Of a stretch of DNA of 19,547 nt, positions 536 through 18,515 are shown piece after piece. The notes under the pieces were generated by a model. That model did no database searches, was not told the origin of the DNA, and was given only the letters and a program-made list of their open reading frames with translations. The position numbers and the translations under genes are program-made. How positions within the stretch are numbered: the first letter of the stretch is position 1; each line of letters begins with the position of its first letter. The stretch is from positions 1-19,547 of IMG/VR virus record IMGVR_UViG_2671181100_000008, one strand, 5' to 3'. The stretch is from a virus. Lineage: Duplodnaviria > Heunggongvirae > Uroviricota > Caudoviricetes.

Positions 536-554
536 AATGGTGCGATAATAGGAG
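536..554. repeat. att core-like repeat: imperfect copy (one-base deletion) of the tRNA-Thr 3' end found at 12397-12416
   Basis: aatggtgcgataataggag at 536-554 versus aatggtgccgataataggag at 12397-12416, same orientation; proposed left boundary of the integrative element. Confidence 0.5.
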
Positions 555-849: not shown

Positions 850-1977
850 ATGACGATAACAGCCTATTCTAGAAAATTTAAGCGTGAACTGGATGCTAAG
901 CAGTTGGAAAACCTTTTCGAACGTAGCAACTCAGATCCTTCTTTAAGTTTTAGAGATTTTGTTAAAGAGGATGTTGAATGCCCGGCATGCAATGTTTCTG
1001 GTGGTTATTACGTTTCGGAAGGAAGATCGCTCAGTAACGGCAAAGTTGTAAAGCAAGCACACTTTGCATTTCGAGACAATCTAGGTAAAGACTCTCACCT
1101 CCCATTTTGTGATTTTTATACTGGAGATGATAAGTTGAACGTTGTTTCAAATGAAGGCCGAATTGATTTTATGCGCTCGGGTTCTGAAGCGACACGCTTA
1201 ATAGGTCTTATGGTCTGCGCGGGAATTCAGGAGAAGATTTTTACGCAAGAAGATATACGTAACATGCGCCAATGGTTCTTAGATTTAAGAGAAAAAGGCA
1301 CTTTTACATTTAATTTAAGCCCTCACATAATTTACCTTGCAAAGGCCTCATTGATTAGATACAAGAGAAACTATGATAATTATGTTGTCGATCTCAGCGC
1401 CACAAACAAAAGTTGGTTCGACATCAATGAGGAAGTATATCAATCCCTTTATTTCAAGTACCCTCAATTCTATCTAAACCGTAATGAGAATCCTGAACTT
1501 TGGAATGTAAGGCTTAAATCAGTAGTCAAAAAAGCAAGAACTATAGTAATTAAAGACTCTGGAACATCAACATTTGACAGATCAATTCTCAACGAAAAAT
1601 ATGAGATAGCTACTCAAATGGCAAGACTGATTCGAGACTACCACCCTCGACTCCGTATGATTATTAGTTACACACCAACATCTATCAAAGCAAACAACCC
1701 ACTCATGGCTTTATCTGCATTATTATTACATGTTTCCGATTGGAATATTCAGGAAAGTTGTAAAAAAATCCAAGCAATTTTAGCAGTTGAGAAAGTTGAC
1801 GATAATTCTGCAGGAAACATTATTGGATTAAACCCATTCATTCACCATAGCGCTTGGATTCTTGTTAAAGCTTTAAACGACTTACATTCTAATTTAGACA
1901 AAGAAATTGATTTTGATAAAGCATTCAACGAAGAAAAAGAGAGGCTCATGAAAATTTACTATCCAAATGGTCAATAA
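850..1977 (+). CDS. Hypothetical protein (375 aa), putative partner of the downstream SIR2-like protein
   Basis: ATG at 850 preceded by AAGGAG (836-841) with 8-nt spacing; stop TAA 1975-1977; the ORF-track start at 706 is a TTG without an RBS. AT-rich. No domain recognisable by eye; one CPAC motif. Confidence 0.7.
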   Translation: MTITAYSRKFKRELDAKQLENLFERSNSDPSLSFRDFVKEDVECPACNVSGGYYVSEGRSLSNGKVVKQAHFAFRDNLGKDSHLPFCDFYTGDDKLNVVSNEGRIDFMRSGSEATRLIGLMVCAGIQEKIFTQEDIRNMRQWFLDLREKGTFTFNLSPHIIYLAKASLIRYKRNYDNYVVDLSATNKSWFDINEEVYQSLYFKYPQFYLNRNENPELWNVRLKSVVKKARTIVIKDSGTSTFDRSILNEKYEIATQMARLIRDYHPRLRMIISYTPTSIKANNPLMALSALLLHVSDWNIQESCKKIQAILAVEKVDDNSAGNIIGLNPFIHHSAWILVKALNDLHSNLDKEIDFDKAFNEEKERLMKIYYPNGQ

Positions 1978-2068: not shown

Positions 2069-3568
2069 ATGAATATAACGGATTTTCTAAAAGGCTACAG
2101 AAACCATCCAATATTATTTGTTGGAGCAGGTTTCAGCATGAGATACTTATCAATTTCTTATAGCTGGCCGGCACTCTTAGAGAAAATTAGTATTGACCTG
2201 ACAAACTCTAATGAACTATATAAAGATCTTGTCAGAGAAAACAGTAATAAAGATGGTATTATAGACCTTCCAAAAGTGGCAACGCAATTAGAGCAAATAT
2301 TTGATGCAACACTTAAAGCAGATAGGAATGGAAAGTTCAAAAATATCAATGACTTATACTACAGCTCGGAAGATACCTCCTCAAATATTAGCAGATTTAA
2401 AATCTATCTTTCACAGTTAGTGAATATCACAGATTTAAAATTAGGAGTTCAAGATGAAATATCTGAATTAGTAAAAGCCTCCAAAAATATTGCCTCTGTG
2501 ATTACAACAAACTATGATAATTTTATCGAAAGTGCAATTGGTTATAACCCTGTAATTGGGAATGATATACTTTTAAGCAATCCTTATGGTTCTGTTTATA
2601 AAATTCACGGATGCGTTAGCAAACCAGAATCCATAATAATAACTGGTGATGACTATGTTCATTTTGATAAAAAATATGAGTTGATTCGTGCTCAACTCCT
2701 ATCCTTATTTATACATAACCCGATTATATTTATGGGGTATAGAATAGGTGACCCTAATATTAAAAAAGTATTAAAAACAATATTTTCATACATACCACCT
2801 CGTTCTAAAATTGCAGAAAAAATAAAAAACAACTTCCTTCTGATTGAAAGAGAAGAAGGCATTGATAATTTAAACGTTGTCTCTCACGATCTCGAAGTAG
2901 AAGATGCTGGGTTAATTAGCATTAATAAAATCGTTACAGATAACTTCTCAGACATATATAAAGAACTTGCTCAACTGCACTTACCAGTTTCGGTAATGGA
3001 TATACGCAGAGCAGAGAGTGTCTTTGGTAAAATAAAGGAAGGCGGAGACATAAAAGTAAAACTTGTTGGGGATTTGGACACGCTCAGAAATGATGAACTT
3101 GTTCTAGCCGTCGGTTCTGTTAACTCTATAAAAATACACATGCAAACACCTCAGGAGATGATGGAAAACTATTTTGATCTAATTTCAAATCAGGAGTCGC
3201 ATGTTGTCGAGTTGCTTGACAAGTTCACCATCAATAAAAGATCATATTTCCCAGCTTATGCTTTTCATAAATTCAGTCCAGGTGTTAAATGCTTAACATC
3301 ATTAATGAAAAATCAAAAAAGATTAATAGCGTCAAACTATGCTAGGTTACCCAAGAATCAAAGAATAGTAGAACACACCATTGAAGATATTTACGCTAAA
3401 CATTCAGATATTGATAGCAAATTACAAAATATTATTTTCTTCAATGCTCATGATGGACATATATCCTTGGAAGATTTAGAAAAACATGTCCGAGAATTTA
3501 AGGACAAGTCTCATACTGATTATCGCAAACTTTTAGCATTGTATGATTACCTCGCACACAATGTATAA
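2069..3568 (+). CDS. SIR2-like domain protein (499 aa): N-terminal SIR2_2-type putative NADase domain, C-terminal half unassigned
   Basis: Motifs seen in translation: ILFVGAGFS (res 15-23), ITTNYD (145-150, Asn148 codon 2510-2512), KIHGC (His180 codon 2606-2608), FMGYRIGD. Same strand as and 91 bp downstream of the 375-aa gene; AT-rich. Confidence 0.8.
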   Translation: MNITDFLKGYRNHPILFVGAGFSMRYLSISYSWPALLEKISIDLTNSNELYKDLVRENSNKDGIIDLPKVATQLEQIFDATLKADRNGKFKNINDLYYSSEDTSSNISRFKIYLSQLVNITDLKLGVQDEISELVKASKNIASVITTNYDNFIESAIGYNPVIGNDILLSNPYGSVYKIHGCVSKPESIIITGDDYVHFDKKYELIRAQLLSLFIHNPIIFMGYRIGDPNIKKVLKTIFSYIPPRSKIAEKIKNNFLLIEREEGIDNLNVVSHDLEVEDAGLISINKIVTDNFSDIYKELAQLHLPVSVMDIRRAESVFGKIKEGGDIKVKLVGDLDTLRNDELVLAVGSVNSIKIHMQTPQEMMENYFDLISNQESHVVELLDKFTINKRSYFPAYAFHKFSPGVKCLTSLMKNQKRLIASNYARLPKNQRIVEHTIEDIYAKHSDIDSKLQNIIFFNAHDGHISLEDLEKHVREFKDKSHTDYRKLLALYDYLAHNV

Positions 3569-4011: not shown

Positions 4012-4509
4012 TTACAGTTTTTCGCCGTCCAGCAGGCAGAGTGACATTAAACCAGTTTTGTTCCAGTCATCCAGCGTATCGGGGTGCATTGTGGCAACGT
4101 AAGCCAGCTCAGAACGAAGAAACCGTAAAGCGCCTGCTGCACGGTCTTTGCCATAGAAGCTGTGGGTTTCTTCATCCGGCCGGAAGAGAATCAGCAATTG
4201 TTCATCGGACTCGTGCTGAACATCAAAACCCAGCTCAGCGGCTGCTGCCTCTATTCGCTGGCCAGCATTAATATCAGCCGGCAGCTCTTTCCCGCCGTCA
4301 TGCCCCCATACCCACGCGGCGGCCTGCGCCCACGTCATTGCATTGTGATGATCACCAGCACCAGCACCAGCAGAATTTTGCTTCGCCTGTGTTGCTTCAA
4401 CATCCACTTTATCGCCTGATAGCACAATCTCACCACGTGCTATCCAGCCGTAAACTGTTTGTCGGCTAACGCCCATATGCCTGGCGTAGGCTGATTTACT
4501 TAACAGCAT
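4012..4509 (-). CDS. HTH DNA-binding protein (165 aa), possibly terminase-small-subunit-like or packaging-redirecting
   Basis: ATG at 4509 with GGAGGG RBS upstream on the minus strand; N-terminus MLLSKSAYARHMGVSRQTVYGWIARGEI is a typical helix-turn-helix; last gene of the minus-strand operon. Function is inference. Confidence 0.55.
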   Translation of the reverse strand: MLLSKSAYARHMGVSRQTVYGWIARGEIVLSGDKVDVEATQAKQNSAGAGAGDHHNAMTWAQAAAWVWGHDGGKELPADINAGQRIEAAAAELGFDVQHESDEQLLILFRPDEETHSFYGKDRAAGALRFLRSELAYVATMHPDTLDDWNKTGLMSLCLLDGEKL

Positions 4510-4543: not shown

Positions 4544-5338
4544 TCAGGCGGCCTGTTTCCCATCTTCATCATCTGCTTTACCCTGTCGGGAATTAATTTT
4601 TTCCATACCATCAATGTACTCGGACAGATTCGCCAGCCCGGAGACTCGAGGAGCCACATCGCGAGGGTCGTCATTGCTTCCAAATACCAGATTTGCATAC
4701 CATGTGCGAACAGCGATGATTTGCTGCAGGTTGCGGTTAATGGCTTTTACCAGGTTAGAAACAGATTTGATAACGGCTCCGTTATCTGTGGCGATACGGG
4801 CAAAAGTCAGTCGCTCCAGCTGAGAATCTGTTACGCCTGAGCAAATGGCGTTACCTCGTAGCAGGGCGTCACATAAATCAGTCTGATTCCCGGCATACAT
4901 TGCTACCATCAGCTTTTCTTTCGCAGCTCCATCCAGCGAGCGAAATACATTCCGTAGCTCACTATCTCGCATAAATCCGACAACATCACCCTCGGCCAAC
5001 GGAGCAACTGGGGCCAGTTTGGTCTTAAGATAATTGAGAATATTTTCAGCTTGTTCGCTGATCATCGCCGTACTTCTAGTGAAAGCCGTGAGTGTGTCTC
5101 TATTTGCCGCATCTCTGGCCCGGCGGTTTTTTGCTGCTTCGTTTAAATCCGGATCATTGCGGATAACCTCTACGGCATCGGCTTCCGCCTCAGCTAACAT
5201 TGCCACGGCCCGCAGATCACCAAAAATATTCGTCATCCCTTTAAAAAGAATCGCCATCTGCTCATTAGGCGCAACCACTTCAGAAACGTTATCAGTGATA
5301 GCAATGCTTCTTTGCCCAATTTTAATTTCGTAACTCAC
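4544..5338 (-). CDS. Hypothetical satellite/phage protein (264 aa), GTG start
   Basis: GTG at 5338 preceded by GGAGGT; no in-frame ATG upstream before a stop; start overlaps the stop of the upstream small gene (GTGA overlap at 5335-5338). Confidence 0.6.
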   Translation of the reverse strand: MSYEIKIGQRSIAITDNVSEVVAPNEQMAILFKGMTNIFGDLRAVAMLAEAEADAVEVIRNDPDLNEAAKNRRARDAANRDTLTAFTRSTAMISEQAENILNYLKTKLAPVAPLAEGDVVGFMRDSELRNVFRSLDGAAKEKLMVAMYAGNQTDLCDALLRGNAICSGVTDSQLERLTFARIATDNGAVIKSVSNLVKAINRNLQQIIAVRTWYANLVFGSNDDPRDVAPRVSGLANLSEYIDGMEKINSRQGKADDEDGKQAA

Positions 5339-5508
5339 TGGCTTACCTCCATTCTGGATAGCCCAACATCAAATATTTTTCTCGCCACATCATGGATTGA
5401 TGGTGCGATACCAAACCCGGATTTCTGGCGTTCCTGCTCCTGGATGGCTTTTAATGCCGCAACCTGAGCAGCGCTCAGAAGAACGGGTTTCACGTGTTCC
5501 TTTTTCAT
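5335..5508 (-). CDS. Small hypothetical protein (57 aa)
   Basis: ATG at 5508 with G-rich RBS (AAGGGGG); the longer ORF-track start at 5547 is TTG; translationally coupled to the 264-aa gene. Confidence 0.5.
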   Translation of the reverse strand: MKKEHVKPVLLSAAQVAALKAIQEQERQKSGFGIAPSIHDVARKIFDVGLSRMEVSQ

Positions 5509-5639
5509 GCTTCCCCCTTGGTTATCACATGATAAAAAACGCAACAATCACAATAATCATTGCAAGTAATGAAATGATGGTAATGAAATCGAGGGGATGC
5601 ACAACGTGAAATGAATGGATGCGTTTTAAAGAATTTGCC

Positions 5640-5890
5640 CTCAAGGTATACATGGTGTTCATAAAGGCTATAAATTGCTTATAAAACATAATATTAACCT
5701 ATGAACACCAGCCTACATTTTGGGATTTCAGGTCTACACGGTATACATCATTCTGTTTAATAAACGATCAGATGGTTAATGAGAGAATGAACACCATGTA
5801 CACCCTGTGTATACCTGAAAACAAGGTATACATGGTTTATTGCACTGATTTATATATAAATTATTCTCTCGATGTATACCATGTATACCT
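5640..5890. repeat. Iteron-like cluster of a 12-bp motif GGTATACATGGT in both orientations (putative replication origin or operator)
   Basis: Exact copies at 5645-5656 and 5825-5836 (direct), exact inverted copy at 5878-5889, degenerate copies at 5740-5751 and 5793-5804 (inverted), half-site at 5808-5816; AT-rich spacer immediately downstream of the primase gene. Confidence 0.55.
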
Positions 5891-5911
5891 TTCTCCATAT
5901 TTATCTGAACT

Positions 5912-7675
5912 TCATTCTTTATGACCGGCTACAGGATGCGTCTGAGGTAACCAGTCTTCCGCACTCTCTGAAAGTTCAACGTTGGTCACCATGCCACGGG
6001 CTCTCCGTTCCTTACGGTACTCGTGATTAAACTCCCTCATCGCGCTTTCCATCCCCTCTGCGAATTTATTCAGCGTCAGCGGCTTGTCGAAACCGTTGGC
6101 CTCCAGGAATGCCAGGTAAGCGTGATAGAGATAAATTCGCGGATAGTGAGGCGGATTGCGGTTTCCTACCATCATTCCCGCACAATCAGCCAGCCGCTCA
6201 AGATGCGCGCAGAAGGCATAAAGCGGATCCGTTTTCTGCTTCACCTCCAGTGCTTCTTCGCTGTTCCGTTGCTCCAGCAGCAGCGCCCGCGCTTTTTCCG
6301 GGTTCGCAAAGTTCGCCAGCAGCCGACGAACCACCACCGGAATTTCAGCGGATATCTTTTCTGCCAGGTCGGGATCTTTATCCTCCTCGCTGACGCGCCG
6401 GTTAAACTGGAAAATTACGCGTCGCCGGGAAACGCCGCCGGCACGTTCGGTGAAAATCATCGGCGTGTTGTTCGTGGCCACAACCACCGCCCGCAAAACG
6501 GCGGTGTACTGGTGCTCGTGTTTCGGGTCGATCTCCACGGCATCCCCGCCGGTTATCGCTTTTATCCCGGTACCCTCTCCTGAATATTTGGGCTGATCAG
6601 GAAGCGTTATCATGCTTTTCCCGACGAACTGCGCCCGCCCGCGCGCGCTGTCGAGCGCCGCCATGTTCCCGCTGGCGGTGTTATGCGCACCGGCCAGCAT
6701 CGTAGCGATATGGGTAAAGACACTTTTCCCGCTACCGCCATCACCGGTTATCTCGAGGAACAGCTGCCAGTCGTACCGGTTCGCCAGCACCATAAAGAGC
6801 GCTGCAGCGATGCGCTGCATCTTAATTGCGTCTCTATCTGATGCGTAACTTAGCCATTTATGGAAGTTCGGCGCGTGGTCGCGGAGGTTTTCGCCCGGTA
6901 CCGCTGGCGTGTAGGTCACGCCGTTATGATTGGTTAGCCAGTTGTCCTGGCTGTGTTCGGAGAAAATGCCGGTTTCCATATCGTAGACACCGTTTGCAAA
7001 GGGGATCAGGCTCCGCCGCGGCTCCCCCATCACCGGGATAACGATTTTCAGGGCGTCGATAACGTTGTTGATCGCGCGCTTGCTGAAGTTGGTTTTGTTC
7101 TCGTTGTAGATAGCCACCATTTCGCGGCTCAGCTCGAGCATAGACGTTTTCTCCCAAATGCCGGCGCGGTAGACGTACACGCCCTCGCTGTTTTCGTTGA
7201 TTGCAATGCCGGTGTAACGCGCGGCCAGTATGAGCGCCTTTTCGTTATCAGCCAGGTCGCGGAGGTTTACATCCGTCAGCGGTTTGCCGATCACCATACT
7301 TTTGCCGGCTTCCGCATCGGCTTTGAGGCGCGGCAGCTGCGGCGTCCAGTCCTCCAGAAGCTGATAACCTTCAGAGTAGAATTGCGCGCGCTCCACGCCG
7401 GCCACCGCCAGCTTTGTCGCGAGAATGGTTATCTGCCGTTCGGTCAGATGCCCGCCGCGGCAAACCCGGGCATAGAGCCGGCCATCATCAACAATGCGGA
7501 TATTCTCCAGCTCCGCCAGCTGCTTTTTATCCAGCACAACCGGCGGCACCGTGTCGCCAATCGGGTTCATTTCCTGCCATGCTTTGGCGAACGTCCAGGC
7601 ATCGGCGCCGGCAAAGATGATTGACTCCTCCATGAGATCCGCCGGCTGCTTTTTAAGGTTTGGTGCATTCTTCAT
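5912..7675 (-). CDS. Primase/helicase-like replication protein (P4 alpha / D5-type C-terminal NTPase family), 587 aa
   Basis: Walker A-like GDGGSGKS in translation; size and context typical of satellite/PICI pri-rep genes; ATG at 7675 overlaps the stop of the upstream gene (ATGA). Confidence 0.8.
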   Translation of the reverse strand: MKNAPNLKKQPADLMEESIIFAGADAWTFAKAWQEMNPIGDTVPPVVLDKKQLAELENIRIVDDGRLYARVCRGGHLTERQITILATKLAVAGVERAQFYSEGYQLLEDWTPQLPRLKADAEAGKSMVIGKPLTDVNLRDLADNEKALILAARYTGIAINENSEGVYVYRAGIWEKTSMLELSREMVAIYNENKTNFSKRAINNVIDALKIVIPVMGEPRRSLIPFANGVYDMETGIFSEHSQDNWLTNHNGVTYTPAVPGENLRDHAPNFHKWLSYASDRDAIKMQRIAAALFMVLANRYDWQLFLEITGDGGSGKSVFTHIATMLAGAHNTASGNMAALDSARGRAQFVGKSMITLPDQPKYSGEGTGIKAITGGDAVEIDPKHEHQYTAVLRAVVVATNNTPMIFTERAGGVSRRRVIFQFNRRVSEEDKDPDLAEKISAEIPVVVRRLLANFANPEKARALLLEQRNSEEALEVKQKTDPLYAFCAHLERLADCAGMMVGNRNPPHYPRIYLYHAYLAFLEANGFDKPLTLNKFAEGMESAMREFNHEYRKERRARGMVTNVELSESAEDWLPQTHPVAGHKE

Positions 7676-8200: not shown

Positions 8201-8412
8201 GGTCTGACCTCCCTGACTTTCACCAGATATTCCGATGCCTGACTGACCAGGCTGTGAACCGCCGCGACACGAAAGCTTTCCATTTCATCATCCGGCGCCA
8301 GGGTGTTTATCCACATATCGAGAACGGCAAGCGCCTGACGGCTGTATTCAAGCGCCTGGCCTGCGCTGGTCGTCAGCATGGCAATGGATTCGTTTTGAGT
8401 TGGCTTTGTCAT
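8197..8412 (-). CDS. Hypothetical protein (71 aa)
   Basis: ATG at 8412; ATGA overlap with the stop of the recombinase-like gene. Confidence 0.5.
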   Translation of the reverse strand: MTKPTQNESIAMLTTSAGQALEYSRQALAVLDMWINTLAPDDEMESFRVAAVHSLVSQASEYLVKVREVRP

Positions 8413-9284
8413 GCATTCACCTCCATAGCGAGGCGTGTCTGGATAGCCGCGGCCTTGCTCCCCAGCTGGAGATAAGTCCGGGTGATTGCCGGGTTACTGT
8501 GTCCGAGCATTTCAGAGGCGACCAGCAAGCCCTGTTCGCCGCCGGCGGACATGAGATTAAAGGCGGCAATTTTGCGGCTGGAATAGGCGCTCAGGCGCAG
8601 ACGCGTGTTTACTACGCGGGTAAACCACACCATGACGTTGTGCAGTTTCTTCCAGATCGTCTGACGGCTAACGCTACCTTCCAGAGACTGGCAACGGTTA
8701 CTTTCAATCTGGCTGCGGGAAAATACCAGGTCGTCACCGATAAGATTGCGCTCCATGCGTTCCCGCAGTCGTTTGATGATGCCCGGCGGCAGCTGTTTGG
8801 TGTCGTGCTTCACTTCAGCCTTTGCCACCAGCTCAAACACAATCGCCTGTTCTTCTTCCGTCATGCCGGCGGCCAGCTCGTCGCAGCTCACGCTATCCCA
8901 GTGCATGTACCCAATGTGATCGCCAGCAAGCCGGGCAGCGTCCTTGCGCTGCTGGCGAACAATCTCGATCCCCTTCCGGGTCGCTCTGGCTTCCGCTGCT
9001 TTGGTCTGCTTCGCCACGATGATTGTTGCAATGCCGGTTTCCCAGTTGATGCAGGAGTAACGGAAGTTGCACACGTCGCTGGTACGCCAGCCGGTTACGG
9101 TCGCAATATCCCACCAGAGTAAAACCCACTCCGGCTGGGTCTGCTGGATGCGTTCGCGCAGTTTGCGCTGCTCTTCCCGTTCGTAAACGGGGGTCATGGT
9201 GCGGGTGCCTTTCGTGGTAGTGGCTTTTACCACGTTGCCGCGCAGCTCGCGGGCTTTAGCTGTCAGGGTCTGGAGGTTAAACAT
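8409..9284 (-). CDS. Tyrosine recombinase-like protein (291 aa) embedded in the replication operon
   Basis: Internal ATG at 9284 with GGGAGGT RBS (the 517-aa ORF-track extension has no support); C-terminal LGHSNPAITRTYLQ matches the tyrosine-recombinase box II pattern; candidate box I Arg in TGWRTSDV. Confidence 0.65.
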   Translation of the reverse strand: MFNLQTLTAKARELRGNVVKATTTKGTRTMTPVYEREEQRKLRERIQQTQPEWVLLWWDIATVTGWRTSDVCNFRYSCINWETGIATIIVAKQTKAAEARATRKGIEIVRQQRKDAARLAGDHIGYMHWDSVSCDELAAGMTEEEQAIVFELVAKAEVKHDTKQLPPGIIKRLRERMERNLIGDDLVFSRSQIESNRCQSLEGSVSRQTIWKKLHNVMVWFTRVVNTRLRLSAYSSRKIAAFNLMSAGGEQGLLVASEMLGHSNPAITRTYLQLGSKAAAIQTRLAMEVNA

Positions 9285-9522
9285 GGCTACCTCCCAGTTT
9301 CGCAACATCCAGTTCAAACGCGCCGCTACTGTATTGATAAAGCGAACATTCAGAGCGAATTTTGGCGGCAAAGATAAGATCCCAGCGGGAATAAAACTCG
9401 CGGGCTTCTTGCTCACTGTCGGCAACGATGCGGATAACAACGGGAGTACAGGTCCGGCCTTTCGGCGTACCGAGGAAAAGCCAGGTGAATTTGGGCAGTT
9501 TTTGGGTTGGGGTAGTAGCCAT
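9277..9522 (-). CDS. Hypothetical protein (81 aa), first gene of the replication operon
   Basis: ATG at 9522 with GGAGG RBS at 8-nt spacing; 3' end overlaps the recombinase-like start by 8 nt. Confidence 0.5.
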   Translation of the reverse strand: MATTPTQKLPKFTWLFLGTPKGRTCTPVVIRIVADSEQEAREFYSRWDLIFAAKIRSECSLYQYSSGAFELDVAKLGGSHV

Positions 9523-9724
9523 GTGGCAGCCTCCATACAGTGGTCTAGATAACCACCACCGGAAACGCCAATTTCACTGGTGGTGGACTGAGCAGGGTTG
9601 GCGTAACCGGACTGTATGGACTCCGGCGCGGATTTCTCCGCCCCCACCCAGCCCACCATAATTTTGCTAGCAGAGCGGTTTTGAACCACAACGCGTGAAA
9701 ATAGGTGAGACGGATCAACGGCAC

Positions 9725-9746
9725 AAAAAAAGACGCTTGGCGCGTC
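9725..9746 (-). terminator. Rho-independent terminator on the minus strand, downstream of alpA
   Basis: Minus strand reads GACGC-GCCAA-GCGTC followed by seven T (plus-strand A-run 9725-9731, stem 9732-9736 and 9742-9746). Confidence 0.5.
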
Positions 9747-9993
9747 ATGTGTCGCCATACAGTCATTCAGGACGCCAATCCTGACACCAGATTTTGCTGG
9801 TGCTTTTAAAGCATACCCTTCAGTTGAATAACAAGGCAAGGAGTTTTTAGGGTGAGCGAAGCCCTGCCCCAGACGGGCATAATTGTTCTTCATGGCATTA
9901 ACCTTTTTGAATTTTTTAGTGAGCTGTCGCGACGAACTTATTCTGCGAGATCTGAAGTGCAAACTCTCGCAAATTATCTCAGCTCACGGAATC

Positions 9994-10191
9994 TCAGTTC
10001 GTTTGGCTGCGTGACGATTCAATGCGCTCACTAATCCATTCATCAATTTCGCTTTCAATGAAAGCAATTGCTCGAGAACCAATTTTTATGGATGAGGGGA
10101 AACGTTGCTCAGCCATGAGTCGATAGATCCAAGCCTTGCTATAGCCGGTTCTACGCTGAACTTCAGGTAAGCGGATAAGGGATTGGGACAT
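9994..10191 (-). CDS. alpA: AlpA-family phage transcriptional regulator (65 aa)
   Basis: Translation LIRLPEVQRRTGYSKAWIYRLMAEQRFPSSIKIGSRAIAFIESEIDEWI is the characteristic AlpA HTH; ATG at 10191 with GAGAGGT RBS. Confidence 0.85.
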   Translation of the reverse strand: MSQSLIRLPEVQRRTGYSKAWIYRLMAEQRFPSSIKIGSRAIAFIESEIDEWISERIESSRSQTN

Positions 10192-11017: not shown

Positions 11018-12232
11018 TTAAGCGCTTTTCCCAAACGTTCCGTGCACTACATTTTCGCCGTTTTCCAACGCCTCCATATAGTCGGCATACCACTGGAGCA
11101 TTTCGCGGCGGCCATCCAGATACTGGGCGTGGTTGTACGTTCCTCGTATAGAGTTTTTGTCGACGTGTGCCAGTTGCGTTTCAATCCACGCGGTGTTGTA
11201 GCCCTGTTCGTGCAGGATGGTACTCATGGTGTGCCGGAAACCGTGCCCGGTGACTTTTCCGTTATAGCCAATCCGCTTGAAGACTTGGTTTATGCTGGCT
11301 TCACTCATTGTTTTCCGCGGATCGTTACGGCCTGGGAACACAAGCGGGTAATTGCCTGTTAGCTCTTGGATCTGACCAATAAGCGTAAGAGCTTGCCTGG
11401 ACAACGGCACCACATGAGGGCGACGCATTTTCATGCGTGAGGCGGGTATTTCCCAGACCGCCTTACTGATATTGATTTCATCCCAAAATGCCCCACGGAG
11501 TTCGCCGGGACGCAATCCGGTGATAATCAGCAGACGAGCAGCCAAAACTACTAACTCGCTTCCTGAATATCCTGACAACGCATTGAAGAAATCAGGCAAT
11601 TCTTTAGGTGTGAGGAAAGGAAAATGATTGGACTCGTGCCCTTGCATCGCGCTGGTGAGATCCGGGGCGGGGTTATACTCAGCTCGACCGGTAACTATTG
11701 CGTAACGGAAAACTTCCCCACAGCGCTGCCTAACTTTTCTTGCCTTTTCGGTAGCGCCGCGCCCCTCAATGCGCCGCAGCACATTCAACAGTTCAAGCGG
11801 TTTGATTTCGGCTATTGGTTTTTTGCCAATGTATGGGAACACATCTTTATTGAAGGCTTCGAGGATGTCTGAAGCATAACCAGCAGACCATTTTTTTAGT
11901 TTGCTGCTGTGCCATTCAAGGGCAATATCTTTGAAGGTGTTGTTTAGCTGAATTTCACGGGCAATCTTCTCCTCCCGTTTCGCTTCCATAGGATCGATAC
12001 CCCCAGCGATACCCCTTTTCGCTTCTTCACGTTTTGCCCGAGCATCGGCCAATGTGACTTCAGGATAGACACCCAGAGCTAACAGCTTCTCTTTGCCGGC
12101 TACACGATATTTGAGCCGCCAGTATTTGCCGCCATTAGGTTTGATAAGGAGATACAGACCGCCACCATCAGCCAGCTTGTAAGGCTTATCTTTAGGTTTA
12201 GCGGCCTCCACCTGCCGGGCGTTAAGTTTCAC
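11018..12232 (-). CDS. int: Site-specific tyrosine integrase, P4 type (404 aa), GTG start
   Basis: N-terminal arm-binding-like region (KLNARQVEAAKPKDKPYKLADGGGLYLLIKPNGGKYWRLKYR) and C-terminal catalytic region (HGFRHT, NHAQYLD); GTG at 12232 preceded by AAGGAGG and an in-frame stop; adjacent to the tRNA-derived att sequence. Confidence 0.9.
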   Translation of the reverse strand: MKLNARQVEAAKPKDKPYKLADGGGLYLLIKPNGGKYWRLKYRVAGKEKLLALGVYPEVTLADARAKREEAKRGIAGGIDPMEAKREEKIAREIQLNNTFKDIALEWHSSKLKKWSAGYASDILEAFNKDVFPYIGKKPIAEIKPLELLNVLRRIEGRGATEKARKVRQRCGEVFRYAIVTGRAEYNPAPDLTSAMQGHESNHFPFLTPKELPDFFNALSGYSGSELVVLAARLLIITGLRPGELRGAFWDEINISKAVWEIPASRMKMRRPHVVPLSRQALTLIGQIQELTGNYPLVFPGRNDPRKTMSEASINQVFKRIGYNGKVTGHGFRHTMSTILHEQGYNTAWIETQLAHVDKNSIRGTYNHAQYLDGRREMLQWYADYMEALENGENVVHGTFGKSA

Positions 12233-12381: not shown

Positions 12382-12398
12382 TTGGGGAGACGTTAGAA

Positions 12399-12444
12399 TG
12401 GTGCCGATAATAGGAGTCGAACCTACGACCTTCGCATTACGAAT
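12399..12444 (-). tRNA. Partial tRNA-Thr (anticodon CGU, thrW-like): 3' 46 nt only, from anticodon loop to CCA; serves as att site
   Basis: Minus strand reads ATTCGTAATGCGAAGGTCGTAGGTTCGACTCCTATTATCGGCACCA with a T-arm (GGTTCGACTCC), acceptor 3' strand, discriminator and CCA; the expected 5' half is absent from 12445 onward. Identity with thrW is from memory. Confidence 0.7.
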
Positions 12445-13191
12445 TATAAGAATCCGCTTCTAATTCAAAGTATTACCCCATCAACACTGTGCTCACACGT
12501 CCCACCACATCAAAACATGTAAAGCCTTGCAAGCCATTGTGAGGCCTTATGTGTCTCAGTTTTGTCCCACCTTGTATTATGACTTGCATAGCCAATGAAG
12601 ATAAACGTGACGACAAACAGCGCAGCAGTCTTCTTTTCTTTCACACTTTCCCCAATCAGCATACATACTTTCTACCATAACTGTAGTGAATGTCTGTTAT
12701 GAGCGAGCAAAAGAGATTCAATTACCGGGGAATTACTCCGACATAAGCTCTCCCAGAAACACCGGAACAGCGATTCGCATATTCTCTTCTATACTTTCAG
12801 TCTGACCGGCTGGAGATTTCATAGCAAGAAAATGGATGCGCCAAGACCTATGCGGGAAAGAGGCTGAGGAAATAATTGCCGATAGCACTGTGCCCGACGA
12901 AAAGTTAATCTGGCACGCAATGACGCGCGTCCTTGGGGCATCAGGAATCAGAGAGCCAACTTAACAACCCATTACATATTATTTAACCGGACTGTTACAT
13001 GTACAAAGTTCAATGATTAGTGATTCTGTGACGCCACATACAACCTAAGCCCCTGATATAAAACCAGTCTATGCAACACCTAAAAATCATATATGATAGG
13101 GTGATAAGTCAACGCGCAGTATAAAAATTAAGCTAAAAAATGCTTTCAGCATAGTGAATCTATTTCACACTACATAATTAAGGATGAAAAA

Positions 13192-14037
13192 ATGACTGCA
13201 CCAGTAATTAGTTTTATCAATATGAAAGGTGGGGTTGGTAAAACAACTTTATGCGTTGGGATTGCTGAGTTTTTAGCCAACCATATGGGGCGCAAGGTTC
13301 TAGTTATCGATATTGATCCTCAATTTAATGCCACTCAGTCCTTAATGGGGCATTATGATCGAGTAGAAGAATATATGACTGCCCTTCGCCCTAATAATCA
13401 AACCATTCGAAAGATTTTTGAGCTTCCAAATTCATTAATGGAAGATGAAAAGAAAGTGACACCAGAACAGGTCATTACTAAAGTTTCAGACAATCTTGAT
13501 ATTATCTTAGGTGATATAAACATTATCTTTGATACTAACCAAGAGGGTATTAGAATAAAAATGTTGCGTAAATTCATCACCGAAAATGACTTAAAAGAAA
13601 GTTACGACTATATCTTTATCGATAGCCCCCCAACAATCTCATTATTTACAGATACCGCACTCCTTGCTTCTGATTATTATCTTACTCCGGTTAAAATTGA
13701 TCACTACTCGGTGCTTGGAGCAAGCAGTTTAAATAGCGTTATAAGAAATATGCGCACACATCATGAGAAAGAAATCAAGCAAGTCGGTTACATTTATACA
13801 AACACTGATGCTGAAATGACCAATAAAACAAGGGAAATTAAAGAACAATTCGAAAACCATACTCAATTTACAAATTTTTATTTCTTTGAAAATCAATTAA
13901 CCTACGTGCGTGATTTAATGGTAGGTTATCAAGGAAATATTCCTTCTTGTTATTCAAAGTCACGCCAAGATATAGAAAAGATCTGTAACGAATTTATTAA
14001 CAGAGTGGCTCACTTGGAAGGTAACACAAATGAATAA
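13192..14037 (+). CDS. ParA/MinD-like P-loop ATPase (281 aa)
   Basis: Deviant Walker A KGGVGKTT near the N-terminus (FINMKGGVGKTTL); AAGGA RBS 7 nt before the ATG; very AT-rich. Confidence 0.8.
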   Translation: MTAPVISFINMKGGVGKTTLCVGIAEFLANHMGRKVLVIDIDPQFNATQSLMGHYDRVEEYMTALRPNNQTIRKIFELPNSLMEDEKKVTPEQVITKVSDNLDIILGDINIIFDTNQEGIRIKMLRKFITENDLKESYDYIFIDSPPTISLFTDTALLASDYYLTPVKIDHYSVLGASSLNSVIRNMRTHHEKEIKQVGYIYTNTDAEMTNKTREIKEQFENHTQFTNFYFFENQLTYVRDLMVGYQGNIPSCYSKSRQDIEKICNEFINRVAHLEGNTNE

Positions 14038-14428
14038 ACAATTAATTAAAGCGCTCAATAAAGCTAATAATATGCCCATGACCAAAGAAAACTTCTTAGG
14101 CTTGGTAATTATGTTGATTCTTTCAAAAGAGGTTTTTAGATCAAATTTTGATGTTAGTAAATTTATTAACAAAACCTTCAAAATATCTTTTTTGAATTAT
14201 GCTGTACGGTCAAGAACTTTGATGTGCGCTAAAATTTGCAGACATATTAATGAATTAAGTGAGAATGACATAAAGATGGCTTATACGCATTTCTTAAACA
14301 ACATTAACACATTAGACATTATTTTTAATGATGCAAATAAAACAAGCCAAAAATCCACATCTAAAAGCAAGCATGCTATAAGGAATTTAAATATTTGGAT
14401 TAATGCAAATAAAAAGGAAGAAGAATAA
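14030..14428 (+). CDS. Hypothetical protein (132 aa), coupled to the ParA-like gene
   Basis: ATG at 14030 overlaps the ParA-like 3' end by 8 nt; GGAAGG RBS; AT-rich, Asn/Lys-rich. Confidence 0.6.
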   Translation: MNKQLIKALNKANNMPMTKENFLGLVIMLILSKEVFRSNFDVSKFINKTFKISFLNYAVRSRTLMCAKICRHINELSENDIKMAYTHFLNNINTLDIIFNDANKTSQKSTSKSKHAIRNLNIWINANKKEEE

Positions 14429-15093
14429 TGCTCACGCAGGATCCCTTCAACATTGGAAGAGATGTAAATTATTTTAGAGCGGAGGTGCAAAAGCACCTCA
14501 GAACCACTGATGAAATAAACAAATCAGTATCAATATTTAGGCAAATAAGTCTTTGTAATACAATTTTAAGTCACAATCCTAATCTAAATCACTCTTCTTA
14601 TATAAAAGGTTTTATATATGATACCTTAAACTCCTTAATTGCCATTATAAAAAAAAGAGAACGGTATCTCCAACTGAACTTCCGCTCAATGGTGGAGCAT
14701 GTGGCCAGAATAAGCCTCAATAAGAACTACAATGGTGGGGATTTTGACCAAACTGTACGTCGTAGAGACTTTGACTTCTTAAAAGCCCAACAAGTCGATG
14801 AAGGCTGGTCTTATTTACATAATGTCTATATCAACGCCTGTTATTATGTTCACTCCTCCCCCCAAGCGAACCTAAATGTTACATCAACATTTATATCACT
14901 TATGGAGGGAGATTGTAATTCAACACAGCATAAAATGGTGAAAAAACTTCATGAGGTAGTATCGGCGCTGATGAGAATCATTATAAAGTATTATCATCAG
15001 CATATCTCAAACATTTTCTTTAGAAACAAAAAGGATTTAGAGAAAATAATGGGAAAAAGCCTTTATTCATATTATACCAGCTTAGACAATTAA
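14428..15093 (+). CDS. Hypothetical protein (221 aa), third gene of the ParA-like operon
   Basis: ATG at 14428 overlaps the upstream stop (TAATG); AAGGAAG RBS; no assignable domain. Confidence 0.6.
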   Translation: MLTQDPFNIGRDVNYFRAEVQKHLRTTDEINKSVSIFRQISLCNTILSHNPNLNHSSYIKGFIYDTLNSLIAIIKKRERYLQLNFRSMVEHVARISLNKNYNGGDFDQTVRRRDFDFLKAQQVDEGWSYLHNVYINACYYVHSSPQANLNVTSTFISLMEGDCNSTQHKMVKKLHEVVSALMRIIIKYYHQHISNIFFRNKKDLEKIMGKSLYSYYTSLDN

Positions 15094-15130
15094 TTCTCTC
15101 ATATTCATTGCGTAGAGCATAAATATCTAT

Positions 15131-15627
15131 CTAACCACCTAAAATGCCAGAAAATCTAGTTGTATACCGGTGCGAAAATATCTCGCGTTTCATCTGCCAC
15201 TGCTGCTGAATGCCCTGCCCAGCGAAACAGAGTGTTTCCTTCCCGTCTTTTGCATTGAGGTGCTCCAGCACGCTCATTAACTTTTCGCTCCCAGGACCCA
15301 GCGCGTTATCGTCGAATAGGTTAGGGCATGCTCTGACTGAAGAAGTCCCCCAGCATTACCCCGGCTTTCTGATATCGGTGTCCGTCTTTCCATATTGCAT
15401 CCAGACTCCCCGTTGCTACTGCAATGATATCCCGACTGTCCTGTGTCGGGATGAGCAGCTTCACCGACGCGCTGTTACAGTAGTACGACTCGTTCAACGC
15501 AAAGGGTATCGTGTAAAACCGATGATGACACTGCCGGCAATCAGCACTGACGTCAGCAAACGTGAGAAAGAACAGATAAGCCGAACGATTTAGGAAATGT
15601 TTGAAGAGACTGATATGTGGATGGTTT
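15131..15627 (-). pseudogene. umuC: umuC-like (Y-family translesion polymerase) C-terminal remnant, 5'-truncated and frameshifted
   Basis: Minus-strand translation gives ...HRYQKAGVMLGDFFSQ, then after a frame change ...NLFDDNA...LNAKDGKETLCFAGQGIQQQWQMKR...RYTTR, resembling the UmuC/MucB C-terminus as I recall it; no start codon, and the N-terminal three quarters are missing. Confidence 0.55.
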
Positions 15628-16023
15628 CAGTTTAAACGCCTTGAACCGTCATATTACCTAAGTACAATCCGCTGTGACTGGCAATCATTCAATACTTGCA
15701 CTATCAAAAGTGCATCAGCCAACCGCAGCACGTCTTGCATACGACCTGTCTGCGGTTTCAATCACCTCTCACCACCAGTCCCATCAATAATAATTAAACA
15801 GCGCCTAAACAAAATAAATAACAACAAGTCAACAACCTCGACAGGATGCCGATGGGATGATGAAGAGATAAGAAAGAATAACTAGTAAAGCCCTAAAACG
15901 TCAGCGTTCAGACGCGTTTTTTACTTAACCGGTAACAAATACGTTGTATCATAGCAACATAAAATGATTGTTCTAAATCAGATTAACTCCTCACTTTTGT
16001 ACAATGTCGCTTACAGGTATACC

Positions 16024-17913: not shown

Positions 17914-17935
17914 TGCAATTAATAAAATGATTATA

Positions 17936-17959
17936 GCGGCCTTACATTAGTAAGGCCGC
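17936..17959. terminator. Perfect 9-bp hairpin 23 nt after the GmrSD-like stop (putative terminator)
   Basis: gcggcctta (17936-17944), loop cattag, taaggccgc (17951-17959); no clear T-run on the plus strand, so efficiency is uncertain. Confidence 0.4.
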
Positions 17960-18277
17960 TACTCACTATTAAATCCTTTAATTTGCAACAAGAACAGCAG
18001 TGTCAGCCCTAGGTTTCGGACTTTGTACCGCTTATCTTGTCTTCAAAAATCAGCTCGCATCCTGCACAGTTCAGCGCATTACGAATCTGTAGCACCAATC
18101 TTAACTATCTGTTTTAGCAAGCATTAACCGCATTCACTAAGCTATAGTTGATGGCACAAACAGAAAGTTGATGCATGATGTTGTCATGTGTATGTCACAA
18201 ATGCGGCACAACGATCTTCAAACATGTAGCCACACATCCACAGAAGAGCACAAAGCCTTGCAATCCAGTGCAACGCT

Positions 18278-18511
18278 TTGTGTACCATAGTTTTTCCTTA
18301 TCAACTACCGCAAGTATCGATCGATGGAGGCTTGGATGTTAAATTTCATGACTTTGATCACTTGGTGCATCACGAAACTATCGAAGTGCAACTCGCTCAT
18401 GCCAACGGCGGATCTGTGCGTGGGATTTACAACCATGCTCAGTATCTAGATAAGCGCAGAGAAATGATGCAGTGGTGGGCTGATTACATCGATGGTCGTG
18501 CAGGAGTGTAA
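18278..18511 (+). pseudogene. Integrase C-terminal remnant (P4-type), 5'-truncated
   Basis: Translation ...IEVQLAHANGGSVRGIYNHAQYLDKRREMMQWWADYIDG parallels the C-terminus of the intact integrase at 11018-12232 (...IETQLAHVDKNSIRGTYNHAQYLDGRREMLQWYADYMEA); only about 45-55 residues are recognisable. Confidence 0.6.
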
Positions 18512-18515
18512 GCCA

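What the first reader, a model, noticed from the sequence alone, without database searches (positions are those of the whole stretch)
5640..5890. Iteron-like cluster of GGTATACATGGT repeats downstream of the primase gene
At least five copies of a 12-bp motif, in both orientations and including exact direct and inverted pairs, lie in an AT-rich spacer between the primase 3' end and the next operon. The arrangement resembles replication-origin iterons or operator sites of satellite replicons (compare the P4 ori/crr organisation).
Basis: partly seen in the sequence, partly recalled or inferred. Interest (0 to 1): 0.45.

Follow-up and report, generated by a model that had tools for sequence, protein, structure and literature searches.

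The report
Replication origin of a phage satellite island
The repeat cluster is almost certainly the replication origin of a phage-inducible chromosomal island: binding sites for the helicase-initiator encoded just upstream. This kind of origin is already described and tested in a related E. coli island, so this is a new sequence variant, not a new mechanism.

Summary
The true unit is a 9-mer, GGTRTWCAY. Eleven copies lie in 5645-5889 (ten fit the strict pattern and none lies elsewhere in the window; P about 3e-25). They form three convergent modules, each with an exactly 38-bp AT-rich spacer, starting 22 nt after the stop codon of the 587-aa SF3 helicase gene (5912-7675, minus strand).

The helicase's C-terminal domain matches the phage P4 alpha domain in PDB 1KA8 (E 1e-17). 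The whole protein is 53% identical to Pri-Rep of EcCICFT073, whose adjacent ori was tested experimentally (Fillol-Salom 2018). That ori and about 40 further distinct loci share the same geometry (tandem dimer, 35-40 bp AT-rich spacer, inverted single, triplet) but use other 9-mers: GGTGTTCAT, GGTAGATAA, GGTAGACAG, and GGTGAACA, the P4 type I iteron.

Iteron family tracks the C-terminal domain, not the helicase core, the downstream genes, AlpA or the integrase. In pairs with 80-90% identical cores, C-terminal identity is at least 56% when the family is shared and at most 33% when it differs.

Verdict: a PICI-type origin of replication and a new iteron allele of a known kind. The closest relative is the Gram-negative PICI ori rather than the bipartite P4 ori/crr. 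Origin function itself is inferred, not tested.

The parts
5881..5889 (-). Iteron 1 (GGTATACAT), outer unit of the helicase-proximal tandem dimer. It begins 22 nt after the helicase stop codon.
5872..5880 (-). Iteron 2 (GGTATACAT), inner unit of the proximal dimer
5834..5871 (.). 38-bp AT-rich spacer of module C (74% AT), the proposed primary melting site. It contains TGATTTA (5846-5852), the reverse complement of TAAATCA, which sits at the same place in this spacer in all iteron classes.
5825..5833 (+). Iteron 3 (GGTATACAT), a single unit convergent with the proximal dimer
5807..5815 (-). Iteron 4 (GGTATACAC), first unit of the conserved triplet
5796..5804 (-). Iteron 5 (GGTGTACAT)
5787..5795 (-). 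Iteron 6 (GGTGTTCAT)
5749..5786 (.). 38-bp spacer of module B (68% AT)
5740..5748 (+). Iteron 7 (GGTATACAT)
5731..5739 (+). Iteron 8 (GGTCTACAC, a degenerate unit)
5701..5709 (-). Iteron 9 (GGTGTTCAT), a single unit convergent with the distal dimer
5663..5700 (.). 38-bp AT-rich spacer of module A (79% AT)
5654..5662 (+). Iteron 10 (GGTGTTCAT), inner unit of the distal dimer
5645..5653 (+). Iteron 11 (GGTATACAT), outer unit of the distal dimer
5617..5644 (-). Conserved block flanking the last dimer (sense strand CCTTGAGGGCAAATTCTTTAAAACGCATCCA). It is retained in class-A loci whose downstream genes differ, and next to the displaced partial ori of L126. Its role is unknown.
5912..7675 (-). Gene for the 587-aa initiator-helicase (D5_N, SF3 helicase, Pox_D5 C-terminal domain). 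It is 53% identical over its full length to EcCICFT073 Pri-Rep.
5942..6232 (-). Codons 482-578, the C-terminal domain homologous to the P4 alpha domain in PDB 1KA8. This is the part of the protein that co-varies with the iterons. Residues 558, 559 and 562 differ between close relatives that use different 9-mers.
5335..5508 (-). First gene of the downstream operon (57 aa, unknown function). It marks the far edge of the intergenic origin region.

Best explanation
The cluster is the vegetative replication origin of an 11.9-kb phage-inducible chromosomal island (PICI-type satellite) integrated at the tRNA-Thr site.

The proposed mechanism is as follows. The 587-aa SF3 helicase encoded immediately upstream is both initiator and replicative helicase. 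Its C-terminal domain, homologous to the origin-binding domain of phage P4 alpha, recognises the 9-mers GGTRTWCAY. These are arranged as three convergent modules (tandem dimer, 38-bp AT-rich spacer, inverted unit). Helicase oligomers assemble on the iterons on both sides of an AT-rich spacer, most likely the helicase-proximal one at 5834-5871. They melt it and load themselves. Replication follows once a helper phage has switched on the island operon through AlpA.

What is shown here by computation:
- the repeats and their geometry;
- the domain homologies;
- the same geometry in the tested EcCICFT073 ori;
- the co-variation of iteron and C-terminal domain.

What is inferred:
- physical binding;
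- melting at the spacer;
- self-loading;
- helper-phage dependence.
For: 1. Statistics: 10 of 10 GGTRTWCAY copies in the window fall within 245 bp, with P about 3e-25.

2. Protein homology: residues 482-578 match the P4 alpha C-terminal domain in PDB 1KA8 (E 1e-17), and residues 165-547 match the SaPI Pri-Rep structure 7OLA (E 1e-12). The full-length protein is 52.8% identical to EcCICFT073 Pri-Rep.

3. Published precedent: in Gram-negative PICIs the ori lies immediately 3' of pri-rep, as two iteron sets flanking an AT-rich region. The EcCICFT073 pri-ori segment drove plasmid maintenance, and deletion of rep or ori impaired it (PMC6092414). SaPI Rep C-terminal winged-helix domains bind iterons placed directly after rep, on both sides of an AT-rich centre (PMC9371898).

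4. Conserved geometry: dimer, 35-40 bp spacer, inverted single, 9-11 bp gap, then triplet. This holds in the window, EcCICFT073, IHE3034, a cfPICI-like element and 13 further genomes, although the 9-mers differ.

5. Co-variation: among 861 pairs of 42 distinct proteins, pairs with 80-90% identical cores have C-terminal identity of at least 56% when the iteron family is shared and at most 33% when it differs. L011 has a core closest to the GGTAGATAA group, but its C-terminus is closest to P4 and it uses P4-type iterons.

6. No other island protein tracks the iteron class. One iteron class precedes three different downstream gene sets, and an SSB gene is preceded by three iteron classes.

7. Reverse test: of 57 IMG/VR contigs chosen only for containing the 18-bp dimer, 46 carry the same helicase, with a 98-100% identical C-terminus ending 25-44 bp away.
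Against: - No experiment on this element exists. Binding, melting and origin activity are all inferred.
- The C-terminal domain and the iterons are physically adjacent, so part of the co-variation could be plain linkage. The sharp break in identity inside the gene argues for a functional cassette but does not prove binding.
- Four related helicases with a class-A C-terminus (L123-L126) have no iterons directly 3'. In two of them a partial ori lies about 1.9 kb further on, beyond inserted ORFs.
- L039 carries a 91% identical copy of this ori without the cognate helicase, next to the same downstream gene module. The region can therefore travel apart from the helicase.
- No recognisable primase domain was found, so how priming occurs is unknown.
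- The ash gene of the island is annotated as a pseudogene in a near-identical copy, so the island could be partly defective.
Confidence: 0.87

Rival explanations
1. The cluster is a crr-like cis-acting replication enhancer, as in P4. It would bind the helicase, but initiation would occur at a separate ori elsewhere in the island.
For: In P4 the crr lies directly 3' of the alpha gene and holds 9-bp-spaced type I iteron pairs, much as here.
Against: There is no second cluster. All GGTRTWCAY copies are in 5645-5889, and the looser pattern GGTNTNCAY finds only two isolated hits, both inside the helicase gene. The EcCICFT073 region of the same architecture acted as the ori in a pri-ori plasmid test (PMC6092414).
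Confidence: 0.05
2. The repeats are operator or promoter sites for the downstream operon (57-aa, 264-aa and 165-aa DNA-binding proteins), bound by an island regulator such as AlpA or the 165-aa protein.
For: The repeats sit upstream of that operon. L039 has this region together with the same downstream module but without the cognate helicase. One weak sigma-70-like match overlaps the proximal dimer.
Against: Class-A iterons precede three unrelated downstream gene sets (L004, L005 and the window type), and L004 and L005 have no homologue of the 57-, 264- or 165-aa proteins. AlpA similarity does not follow iteron class. Promoter-like matches are at chance level, 2 found against 2.1 expected. Eleven sites spread over 245 bp with conserved 38-bp AT-rich spacers is origin anatomy, not operator anatomy.
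Confidence: 0.04
3. The repeats are a packaging (pac) recognition site for the TerS-like 165-aa DNA-binding protein encoded downstream.
For: The 165-aa protein has an N-terminal HTH that matches a small-terminase PHROG family (phrog_57, E 1e-6). The ori-like region and this module occur together in L039.
Against: The same architecture follows the helicase in elements that lack this protein: EcCICFT073, IHE3034, L004, L005 and L020. The repeat sequence follows the helicase C-terminus, not the 165-aa protein.
Confidence: 0.03
4. The cluster is a chance or low-complexity feature of AT-rich intergenic DNA with no function.
For: The core GTATAC is a palindrome in AT-rich DNA, which inflates the apparent count of inverted copies.
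Against: The Poisson P is about 3e-25, and 0 of 200 shuffles reach the observed count. Spacings are conserved exactly across genera while the unit sequence changes.
Confidence: 0.01

Closest known systems
Replication origin of Gram-negative PICIs, with EcCICFT073 as type example (Fillol-Salom et al. 2018, ISME J, PMC6092414)
   Same: - Position immediately 3' of the pri-rep gene.
- Iteron sets in both orientations flanking an AT-rich region.
- Initiator 53% identical over its full length.
- Same upstream gene order: int, alpA, icd-like, DUF4222, helicase.
- Same fine geometry: dimer, 38-40 bp spacer, single, 9-10 bp gap, triplet.
   Different: - The iteron sequence is GGTRTWCAY here and GGTAGACAG/GGTAGATAG there.
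- The initiator C-terminal domains are only 35% identical.
- The genes downstream of the ori differ: no SSB, PerC, capsid or decoration genes here, but 57-aa, 264-aa and TerS-like proteins plus a SIR2 defence cargo.
- The attachment site differs: tRNA-Thr here against the roxA/phoQ region there.
Phage P4 crr and ori with type I iterons (TGTTCACC) bound by the C-terminal domain of alpha. The binding data of Ziegelin et al. 1993/1995 and Yeo et al. 2002 are cited from my own knowledge, not checked here.
   Same: - Homologous C-terminal domain (E 1e-17).
- Cluster directly 3' of the helicase gene, like crr.
- Units of 8-9 bp, often as 9-bp-spaced tandem pairs and in both orientations.
- Related unit sequence: GTGTTCAT here against GTGTTCAC in P4 when read on the same strand.
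   Different: - P4 needs two separated clusters, ori and crr, about 4.7 kb apart. Here there is only one.
- No exact TGTTCACC occurs in the window.
- The protein lacks the roughly 320-aa N-terminal part of alpha.
- Only int, alpha residues 322-771 and vis have homologues; sid, delta, psu, epsilon and cII do not.
SaPI origins and Rep / Pri-Rep self-loading helicases (Ubeda et al.; Qiao et al. 2022, PMC9371898; PDB 7OLA)
   Same: - Iterons immediately after rep.
- An AT-rich centre with oppositely oriented iterons on each side.
- A C-terminal winged-helix domain that recognises the iterons.
- An SF3 helicase that also acts as initiator.
   Different: - Homology is distant (E 1e-12 over the helicase part).
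- SaPI iterons are 5-6 nt, against 9 nt here.
- The host is Gram-positive, and the regulatory layout is divergent (Stl repressor).

Membership tests
Gram-negative PICI replication origin | Lies immediately 3' of the replication initiator (pri-rep) gene | tested here: met
   The first iteron starts 22 nt after the stop codon of the helicase gene.
Gram-negative PICI replication origin | [quoted passage not shown] | tested here: met
   Eleven 9-mers form three convergent modules with 38-bp spacers of 68-79% AT.
Gram-negative PICI replication origin | The adjacent initiator is homologous to a characterised PICI Pri-Rep | tested here: met
   52.8% identity over 587 aa to EcCICFT073 Pri-Rep. About 69% nucleotide identity of the core region to the IHE3034 PICI gene.
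Gram-negative PICI replication origin | Island context: int, alpA, unidirectional transcription, about 10-15 kb, a specific att site, and no full set of phage structural and lysis genes | tested here: met
   All replication and regulation genes are on the minus strand: int at 11018-12232, an alpA-like gene at 9994-10191, then icd-like, DUF4222 and the helicase. The island spans about 11.9 kb between a degenerate att copy at 536-553 and the 3' part of tRNA-Thr at about 12394-12440.
Gram-negative PICI replication origin | The Rep-ori segment drives autonomous replication, which is lost when ori or rep is deleted | not testable with these tools
   Shown only for EcCICFT073 in the literature.
Gram-negative PICI replication origin | Helper-phage induction, excision and packaging of the island | not testable with these tools
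   No circular contig was found among 35 complete IMG/VR contigs. The one 77-bp terminal repeat is probably an att duplication.
P4-type bipartite origin (ori + crr) | Type I iteron TGTTCACC | tested here: not met
   There are no copies of TGTTCACC or GGTGAACA in the window. The related unit GGTGTTCAT is present instead.
P4-type bipartite origin (ori + crr) | Two separated iteron clusters, both required in cis | tested here: not met
   There is a single cluster, and no copy of the motif occurs elsewhere in the island.
P4-type bipartite origin (ori + crr) | The initiator carries an alpha-type C-terminal origin-binding domain | tested here: met
   PDB 1KA8 matches residues 482-578 with E 1e-17.
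P4-type bipartite origin (ori + crr) | P4 gene set (sid, delta, psu, epsilon, cII) and a full-length alpha with its N-terminal primase domain | tested here: not met
   tblastn finds homologues only of int, alpha residues 322-771 and vis. No primase domain is found by Pfam or NCBIfam.

The most novel reading that the evidence does not exclude
The window's origin may be an intermediate in an origin-specificity switch. Near-identical initiators (98-99% identical cores) differ mainly at residues 558, 559 and 562, which I infer to lie in the wing of the C-terminal domain.

- The KN..M type is paired with almost pure GGTATACAC origins.
- The KT..V type is paired with almost pure GGTGTTCAT origins.
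- The window type (RA or KA..M) is paired with a mixed origin, on average 5 GGTATACAT and 2.6 GGTGTTCAT units.

If these residues set base preference, this natural series would give a readable recognition code for P4-alpha-type origin-binding domains. It would also show how co-resident satellites escape replication cross-talk step by step. A further point: the strict 38-bp spacer repeated three times could mean that more than two helicase assemblies load per origin.
Probability: 0.25. Interest if true: 0.5.

Novelty: new member of a known kind. Interest (0 to 1): 0.3.

Why it matters
The result pins down the origin and the cognate initiator of a widespread 12-kb satellite island. The island occurs in E. 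coli, Pseudocitrobacter and Mangrovibacter and on at least 46 IMG/VR contigs, and it carries a SIR2 defence gene. Knowing the origin is useful for annotation and for building minimal replicons. It also helps predict which co-resident satellites can cross-activate each other.

The comparative series gives a ready-made data set for working out how this class of origin-binding domain reads DNA. It has the same geometry throughout, at least four iteron families, and a cassette-like exchange of the C-terminal domain together with the ori. Mechanistically, though, it confirms what is already known for PICIs, SaPIs and P4.

Tried and rejected
- Operator hypothesis. I compared downstream genes across 20 loci and built a similarity profile of every island protein against iteron class. 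Only the helicase C-terminus tracks the iterons.
- P4 membership. tblastn with all 13 P4 proteins and a search for TGTTCACC showed that this is not a P4-like satellite.
- Second cluster (ori plus crr). None was found.
- Promoter and terminator scan of 5300-6000. Matches were at chance level and there was no terminator on the gene strand.
- DnaA boxes and the IHF consensus in 5500-5911. There was no exact IHF site and only two weak DnaA-like hits that overlap iterons.
- Rfam on the whole window. Nothing was found in the origin region.
- Evidence for an episomal form. I looked for terminal repeats on complete IMG/VR contigs. None was convincing.
- Locating EcCICFT073. Two fetches of the CFT073 genome landed on a lambdoid prophage and on core genes before the island was found.
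- Not done: structure prediction of the N-terminal 150 aa and of the C-terminal domain. The large homology searches it would need were not justified for this question.

Full report
**The observation**

The 12-mer GGTATACATGGT is present exactly at 5645(+), 5825(+) and 5878(-). There are four further copies with 1-2 mismatches between 5731 and 5880, and only one loose match elsewhere in the window. Shuffles give 1.1 matches on average, and 0 of 200 reach the observed 8.

Reading the sequence shows that the 12-mer is a 9-mer plus the first three bases of the next tandem unit. The degenerate unit GGTRTWCAY occurs ten times in the 19.5-kb window, always within 5645-5889. With GGTCTACAC at 5731 there are eleven units. 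In 153 kb of unrelated E. coli DNA the same pattern occurs 0.065 times per kb. That predicts 0.016 copies in 245 bp, a Poisson probability of about 3e-25 for ten or more.

The region has 27-38% GC against 50-55% in the flanking genes.

**Anatomy**

Read in the direction of the upstream gene (minus strand), the layout is:
- a tandem dimer at 5889-5872;
- a 38-bp spacer;
- an inverted single unit at 5825-5833;
- 9 bp;
- a triplet at 5815-5787;
- a 38-bp spacer;
- an inverted dimer at 5740-5748 and 5731-5739;
- 21 bp;
- a single unit at 5709-5701;
- a 38-bp spacer;
- an inverted dimer at 5654-5662 and 5645-5653.

The origin is thus made of three convergent modules, each with a spacer of exactly 38 bp. 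The spacers are 74%, 68% and 79% AT. The first unit begins 22 nt after the stop codon of the upstream gene.

**Context**

The window holds an island of about 11.9 kb, found at the tRNA-Thr site next to proA in near-identical E. coli copies. On the minus strand it encodes, in order:
- a P4-type integrase;
- a 196-aa protein;
- an AlpA/Vis-like HTH protein;
- an ash remnant;
- an icd-like gene;
- a short tyrosine recombinase;
- two small proteins;
- a DUF4222 protein;
- a 587-aa 'DNA primase family protein'.

The repeats follow. After them come genes for 57-aa and 264-aa proteins and a 165-aa DNA-binding protein, and then, on the plus strand, a 375-aa protein and a SIR2 protein.

The 587-aa protein has D5_N, SF3 helicase (DUF5906) and Pox_D5 C-terminal domains but no recognisable primase domain. 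Against solved structures, residues 482-578 match chain 1KA8_A, the C-terminal domain of P4 alpha, with E 1e-17. Residues 165-547 match the SaPI Pri-Rep structure 7OLA with E 1e-12.

**Related loci**

Seventeen loci from other genomes were collected with the protein as query. To these I added a cfPICI-like element deposited as a phage (LR881103), phage P4, the IHE3034 PICI and EcCICFT073.

Every intact locus has a repeat cluster directly 3' of the helicase gene, but the repeated 9-mer differs:
- GGTATACAC in L002;
- GGTGTTCAT in L003, L004, L005 and L010;
- GGTAGATAA in the Xenorhabdus, Pantoea and Rosenbergiella loci;
- GGTAGACAG in IHE3034 and CFT073;
- GGTGAACA in L011 and L020, which is the P4 type I iteron.

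The geometry of the first module is kept in all of them: a dimer, 35-40 bp of AT-rich DNA, an inverted single unit, 9-11 bp, then a triplet with internal gaps of 2 and 0. Inside the proximal spacer a short element, TAAATCA or TTAATCA, sits at the same position whatever the iteron class.

**Link to experiment**

Fillol-Salom et al. 2018 (PMC6092414) state that in Gram-negative PICIs the origin lies immediately 3' of the initiator gene. [quoted passage not shown] They also report that the EcCICFT073 rep-ori segment allowed a temperature-sensitive plasmid to give colonies at 44 C, and that deletion of rep or ori impaired this.

I located EcCICFT073 in the CFT073 genome. Its Pri-Rep is 52.8% identical to the window protein over all 587 residues, and its ori has the architecture described above. 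The IHE3034 island marked in the same paper (ECOK1_RS04635) behaves likewise.

For SaPIs, Qiao et al. 2022 (PMC9371898) summarise the same logic: the Rep C-terminal winged-helix domain binds iterons placed just after rep on both sides of an AT-rich centre, and Rep is a self-loading helicase.

**Co-variation**

The helicase core (window residues 301-470) is 76-88% identical between the window protein and the other genome-derived loci (L002-L017). The C-terminal domain falls to 28-33% in the GGTAGATAA loci, while it stays at 72-98% in the GGTATACA and GGTGTTCA loci. L011 has a core closest to the GGTAGATAA group (80-82%). Its C-terminus, however, is closest to P4 (54%), and it uses P4-type iterons.

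A wider sample of 80 IMG/VR loci gave 42 distinct proteins with at least five iterons. Among their 861 pairs:
- with cores 80-90% identical, same-family pairs have C-terminal identity of median 74% (minimum 56%);
- different-family pairs have median 29% (maximum 33%);
- core identity itself does not separate the families, since different-family pairs reach 88%.

No other island protein follows the iteron class. AlpA, the short recombinase and the integrase are well conserved in some loci of another class. The 57-, 264- and 165-aa proteins are missing from class-A loci L004 and L005. One iteron class precedes three unrelated downstream gene sets, and an SSB gene is preceded by three classes.

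In the reverse direction, I chose 57 IMG/VR contigs only because they contain the 18-bp dimer. Of these, 46 carry the same helicase with a 98-100% identical C-terminus ending 25-44 bp away.

**Mechanism proposed**

The helicase binds the 9-mers through its C-terminal domain. It assembles on both sides of an AT-rich spacer, melts it and loads itself, as proposed for SaPI Rep and P4 alpha. The repeats, the homologies, the conserved geometry and the co-variation are shown here. Binding, melting, loading and helper dependence are inferred. How primers are made is open, because no primase domain is recognisable.

**Caveats and exceptions**

- The iterons and the C-terminal domain are neighbours, so linkage contributes to their co-variation.
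- Four helicases with a class-A C-terminus (L123-L126) lack iterons directly 3'. In L124 and L126 a partial ori lies about 1.9 kb further on, beyond inserted ORFs. In L126 it consists of the distal module plus the conserved flank.
- L039 is a composite. It has a P4-like alpha gene with its own P4-type crr, then an integrase gene, then a 91% identical copy of the window's ori with the same downstream module but no cognate helicase.

**Rivals**

- A crr-like enhancer with a separate ori is unlikely because no second cluster exists.
- Operators for the downstream operon, or a pac site for the TerS-like 165-aa protein, are contradicted by the lack of association with those genes. Promoter matches are also at chance level.
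- Chance is excluded.

**Comparison and novelty**

The feature meets every sequence-testable criterion of a Gram-negative PICI origin. It fails three of four criteria for a P4-type bipartite origin:
- no TGTTCACC;
- a single cluster;
- no P4 gene set beyond int, alpha residues 322-771 and vis.

It works like P4 crr/ori and SaPI ori, and it belongs to the PICI ori family. The new elements are:
- the iteron allele (GGTRTWCAY);
- the mixed composition of this particular origin;
- the observation that close relatives differing at residues 558, 559 and 562 use GGTATACAT, GGTATACAC or GGTGTTCAT.

I rate this a new member of a known kind, of modest interest.

Noticed in passing
window 9576-9663 (-) and 9726-9803 (-): Rfam finds a C4 antisense RNA (75 bits) and an isrK Hfq-binding RNA (71 bits) inside the ash/icd-like region. 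This suggests a P1/P4-style RNA-based immunity or regulation module in the island.
   Followed up: no
window 850-1977 (+) and 2069-3568 (+): The island's distal cargo is a SIR2-domain protein that matches the PADLOC candidate defence family PDC-S25 (E 7e-140). It is preceded by a 375-aa protein with no family match. This is probably an anti-phage system carried by the satellite.
   Followed up: partly
window 12394-12440 and 12500-19547: ARAGORN finds no intact tRNA in the window. Only the 3' part of tRNA-Thr(CGT), about 47 nt, follows the integrase gene. To its right lie a ParA-like ATPase, several unknown genes, a GmrSD type IV restriction enzyme (PADLOC mREase_IV) and a glycine-rich-domain protein. 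This looks like a second island in tandem at the same att site, unlike strain MIN12, where the island abuts the intact tRNA.
   Followed up: partly
window 536-553: TGGTGCGATAATAGGAGC is a degenerate copy, with a 1-nt deletion, of the 3' end of tRNA-Thr. It is probably the distal att boundary of the island, which would then be about 11.9 kb long.
   Followed up: partly
window 4012-4509 (-): The 165-aa 'DNA-binding protein' at the end of the operon downstream of the ori has an N-terminal HTH that matches a small-terminase PHROG family (phrog_57, E 1e-6). It could be a PICI TerS-like packaging protein.
   Followed up: no
window 7226-7675 (-), helicase residues 1-150: The N-terminal 150 aa have no Pfam or NCBIfam match and hit only PHROG 2850, of unknown function. 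This N-terminus is shared with EcCICFT073, IHE3034 and the cfPICI-like element. In other relatives it is replaced by a roughly 350-aa P4-alpha-like N-terminus. The 'primase' label is therefore unproven for this protein.
   Followed up: partly
L039 10559-12700 (IMGVR_UViG_2671180115_000007): This is a composite element. A P4-alpha-like 794-aa gene with its own GGTGAACA crr is followed by an oppositely oriented integrase gene. Next comes an orphan copy (91% identical) of the window's origin together with the same 57-aa/261-aa/DNA-binding module, but no cognate helicase.
   Followed up: partly
L023 1576-4140 and L032 (IMG/VR contigs of about 47 kb): A distantly related phage-like contig encodes a 791-aa NrS-1-type prim-pol + D5_N + SF3 + Pox_D5 protein. 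It is followed at once by five GGTATACAT units around AT-rich DNA. This is the same 9-mer as in the window, although tblastn with the window protein's core and C-terminal segments found no hit there at E 1e-3.
   Followed up: partly
window 5846-5852 and the equivalent position in L002-L021, L081: A short element (TAAATCA or TTAATCA on the helicase-sense strand) sits about 20 nt into the proximal AT-rich spacer in all iteron classes. It could be a host-factor site or the site where unwinding or priming starts. No exact IHF consensus was found.
   Followed up: partly
window 8409-9284 (-): A second, short tyrosine recombinase (291 aa) lies in the middle of the replication and regulation operon. 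It is 74-98% conserved in L002-L004 and L010 and 85-86% in two Pantoea loci of another iteron class. Its role is unknown. The mechanical ORF 8409-9962 merges it with the icd-like gene and the ash remnant.
   Followed up: no
L015 and L016 (Pantoea stewartii), L126: These are naturally truncated origins. L015 and L016 keep only the proximal dimer, spacer, single unit and triplet. L126 keeps only the distal module plus the conserved flank, about 1.9 kb from the helicase gene after two inserted ORFs.
   Followed up: partly
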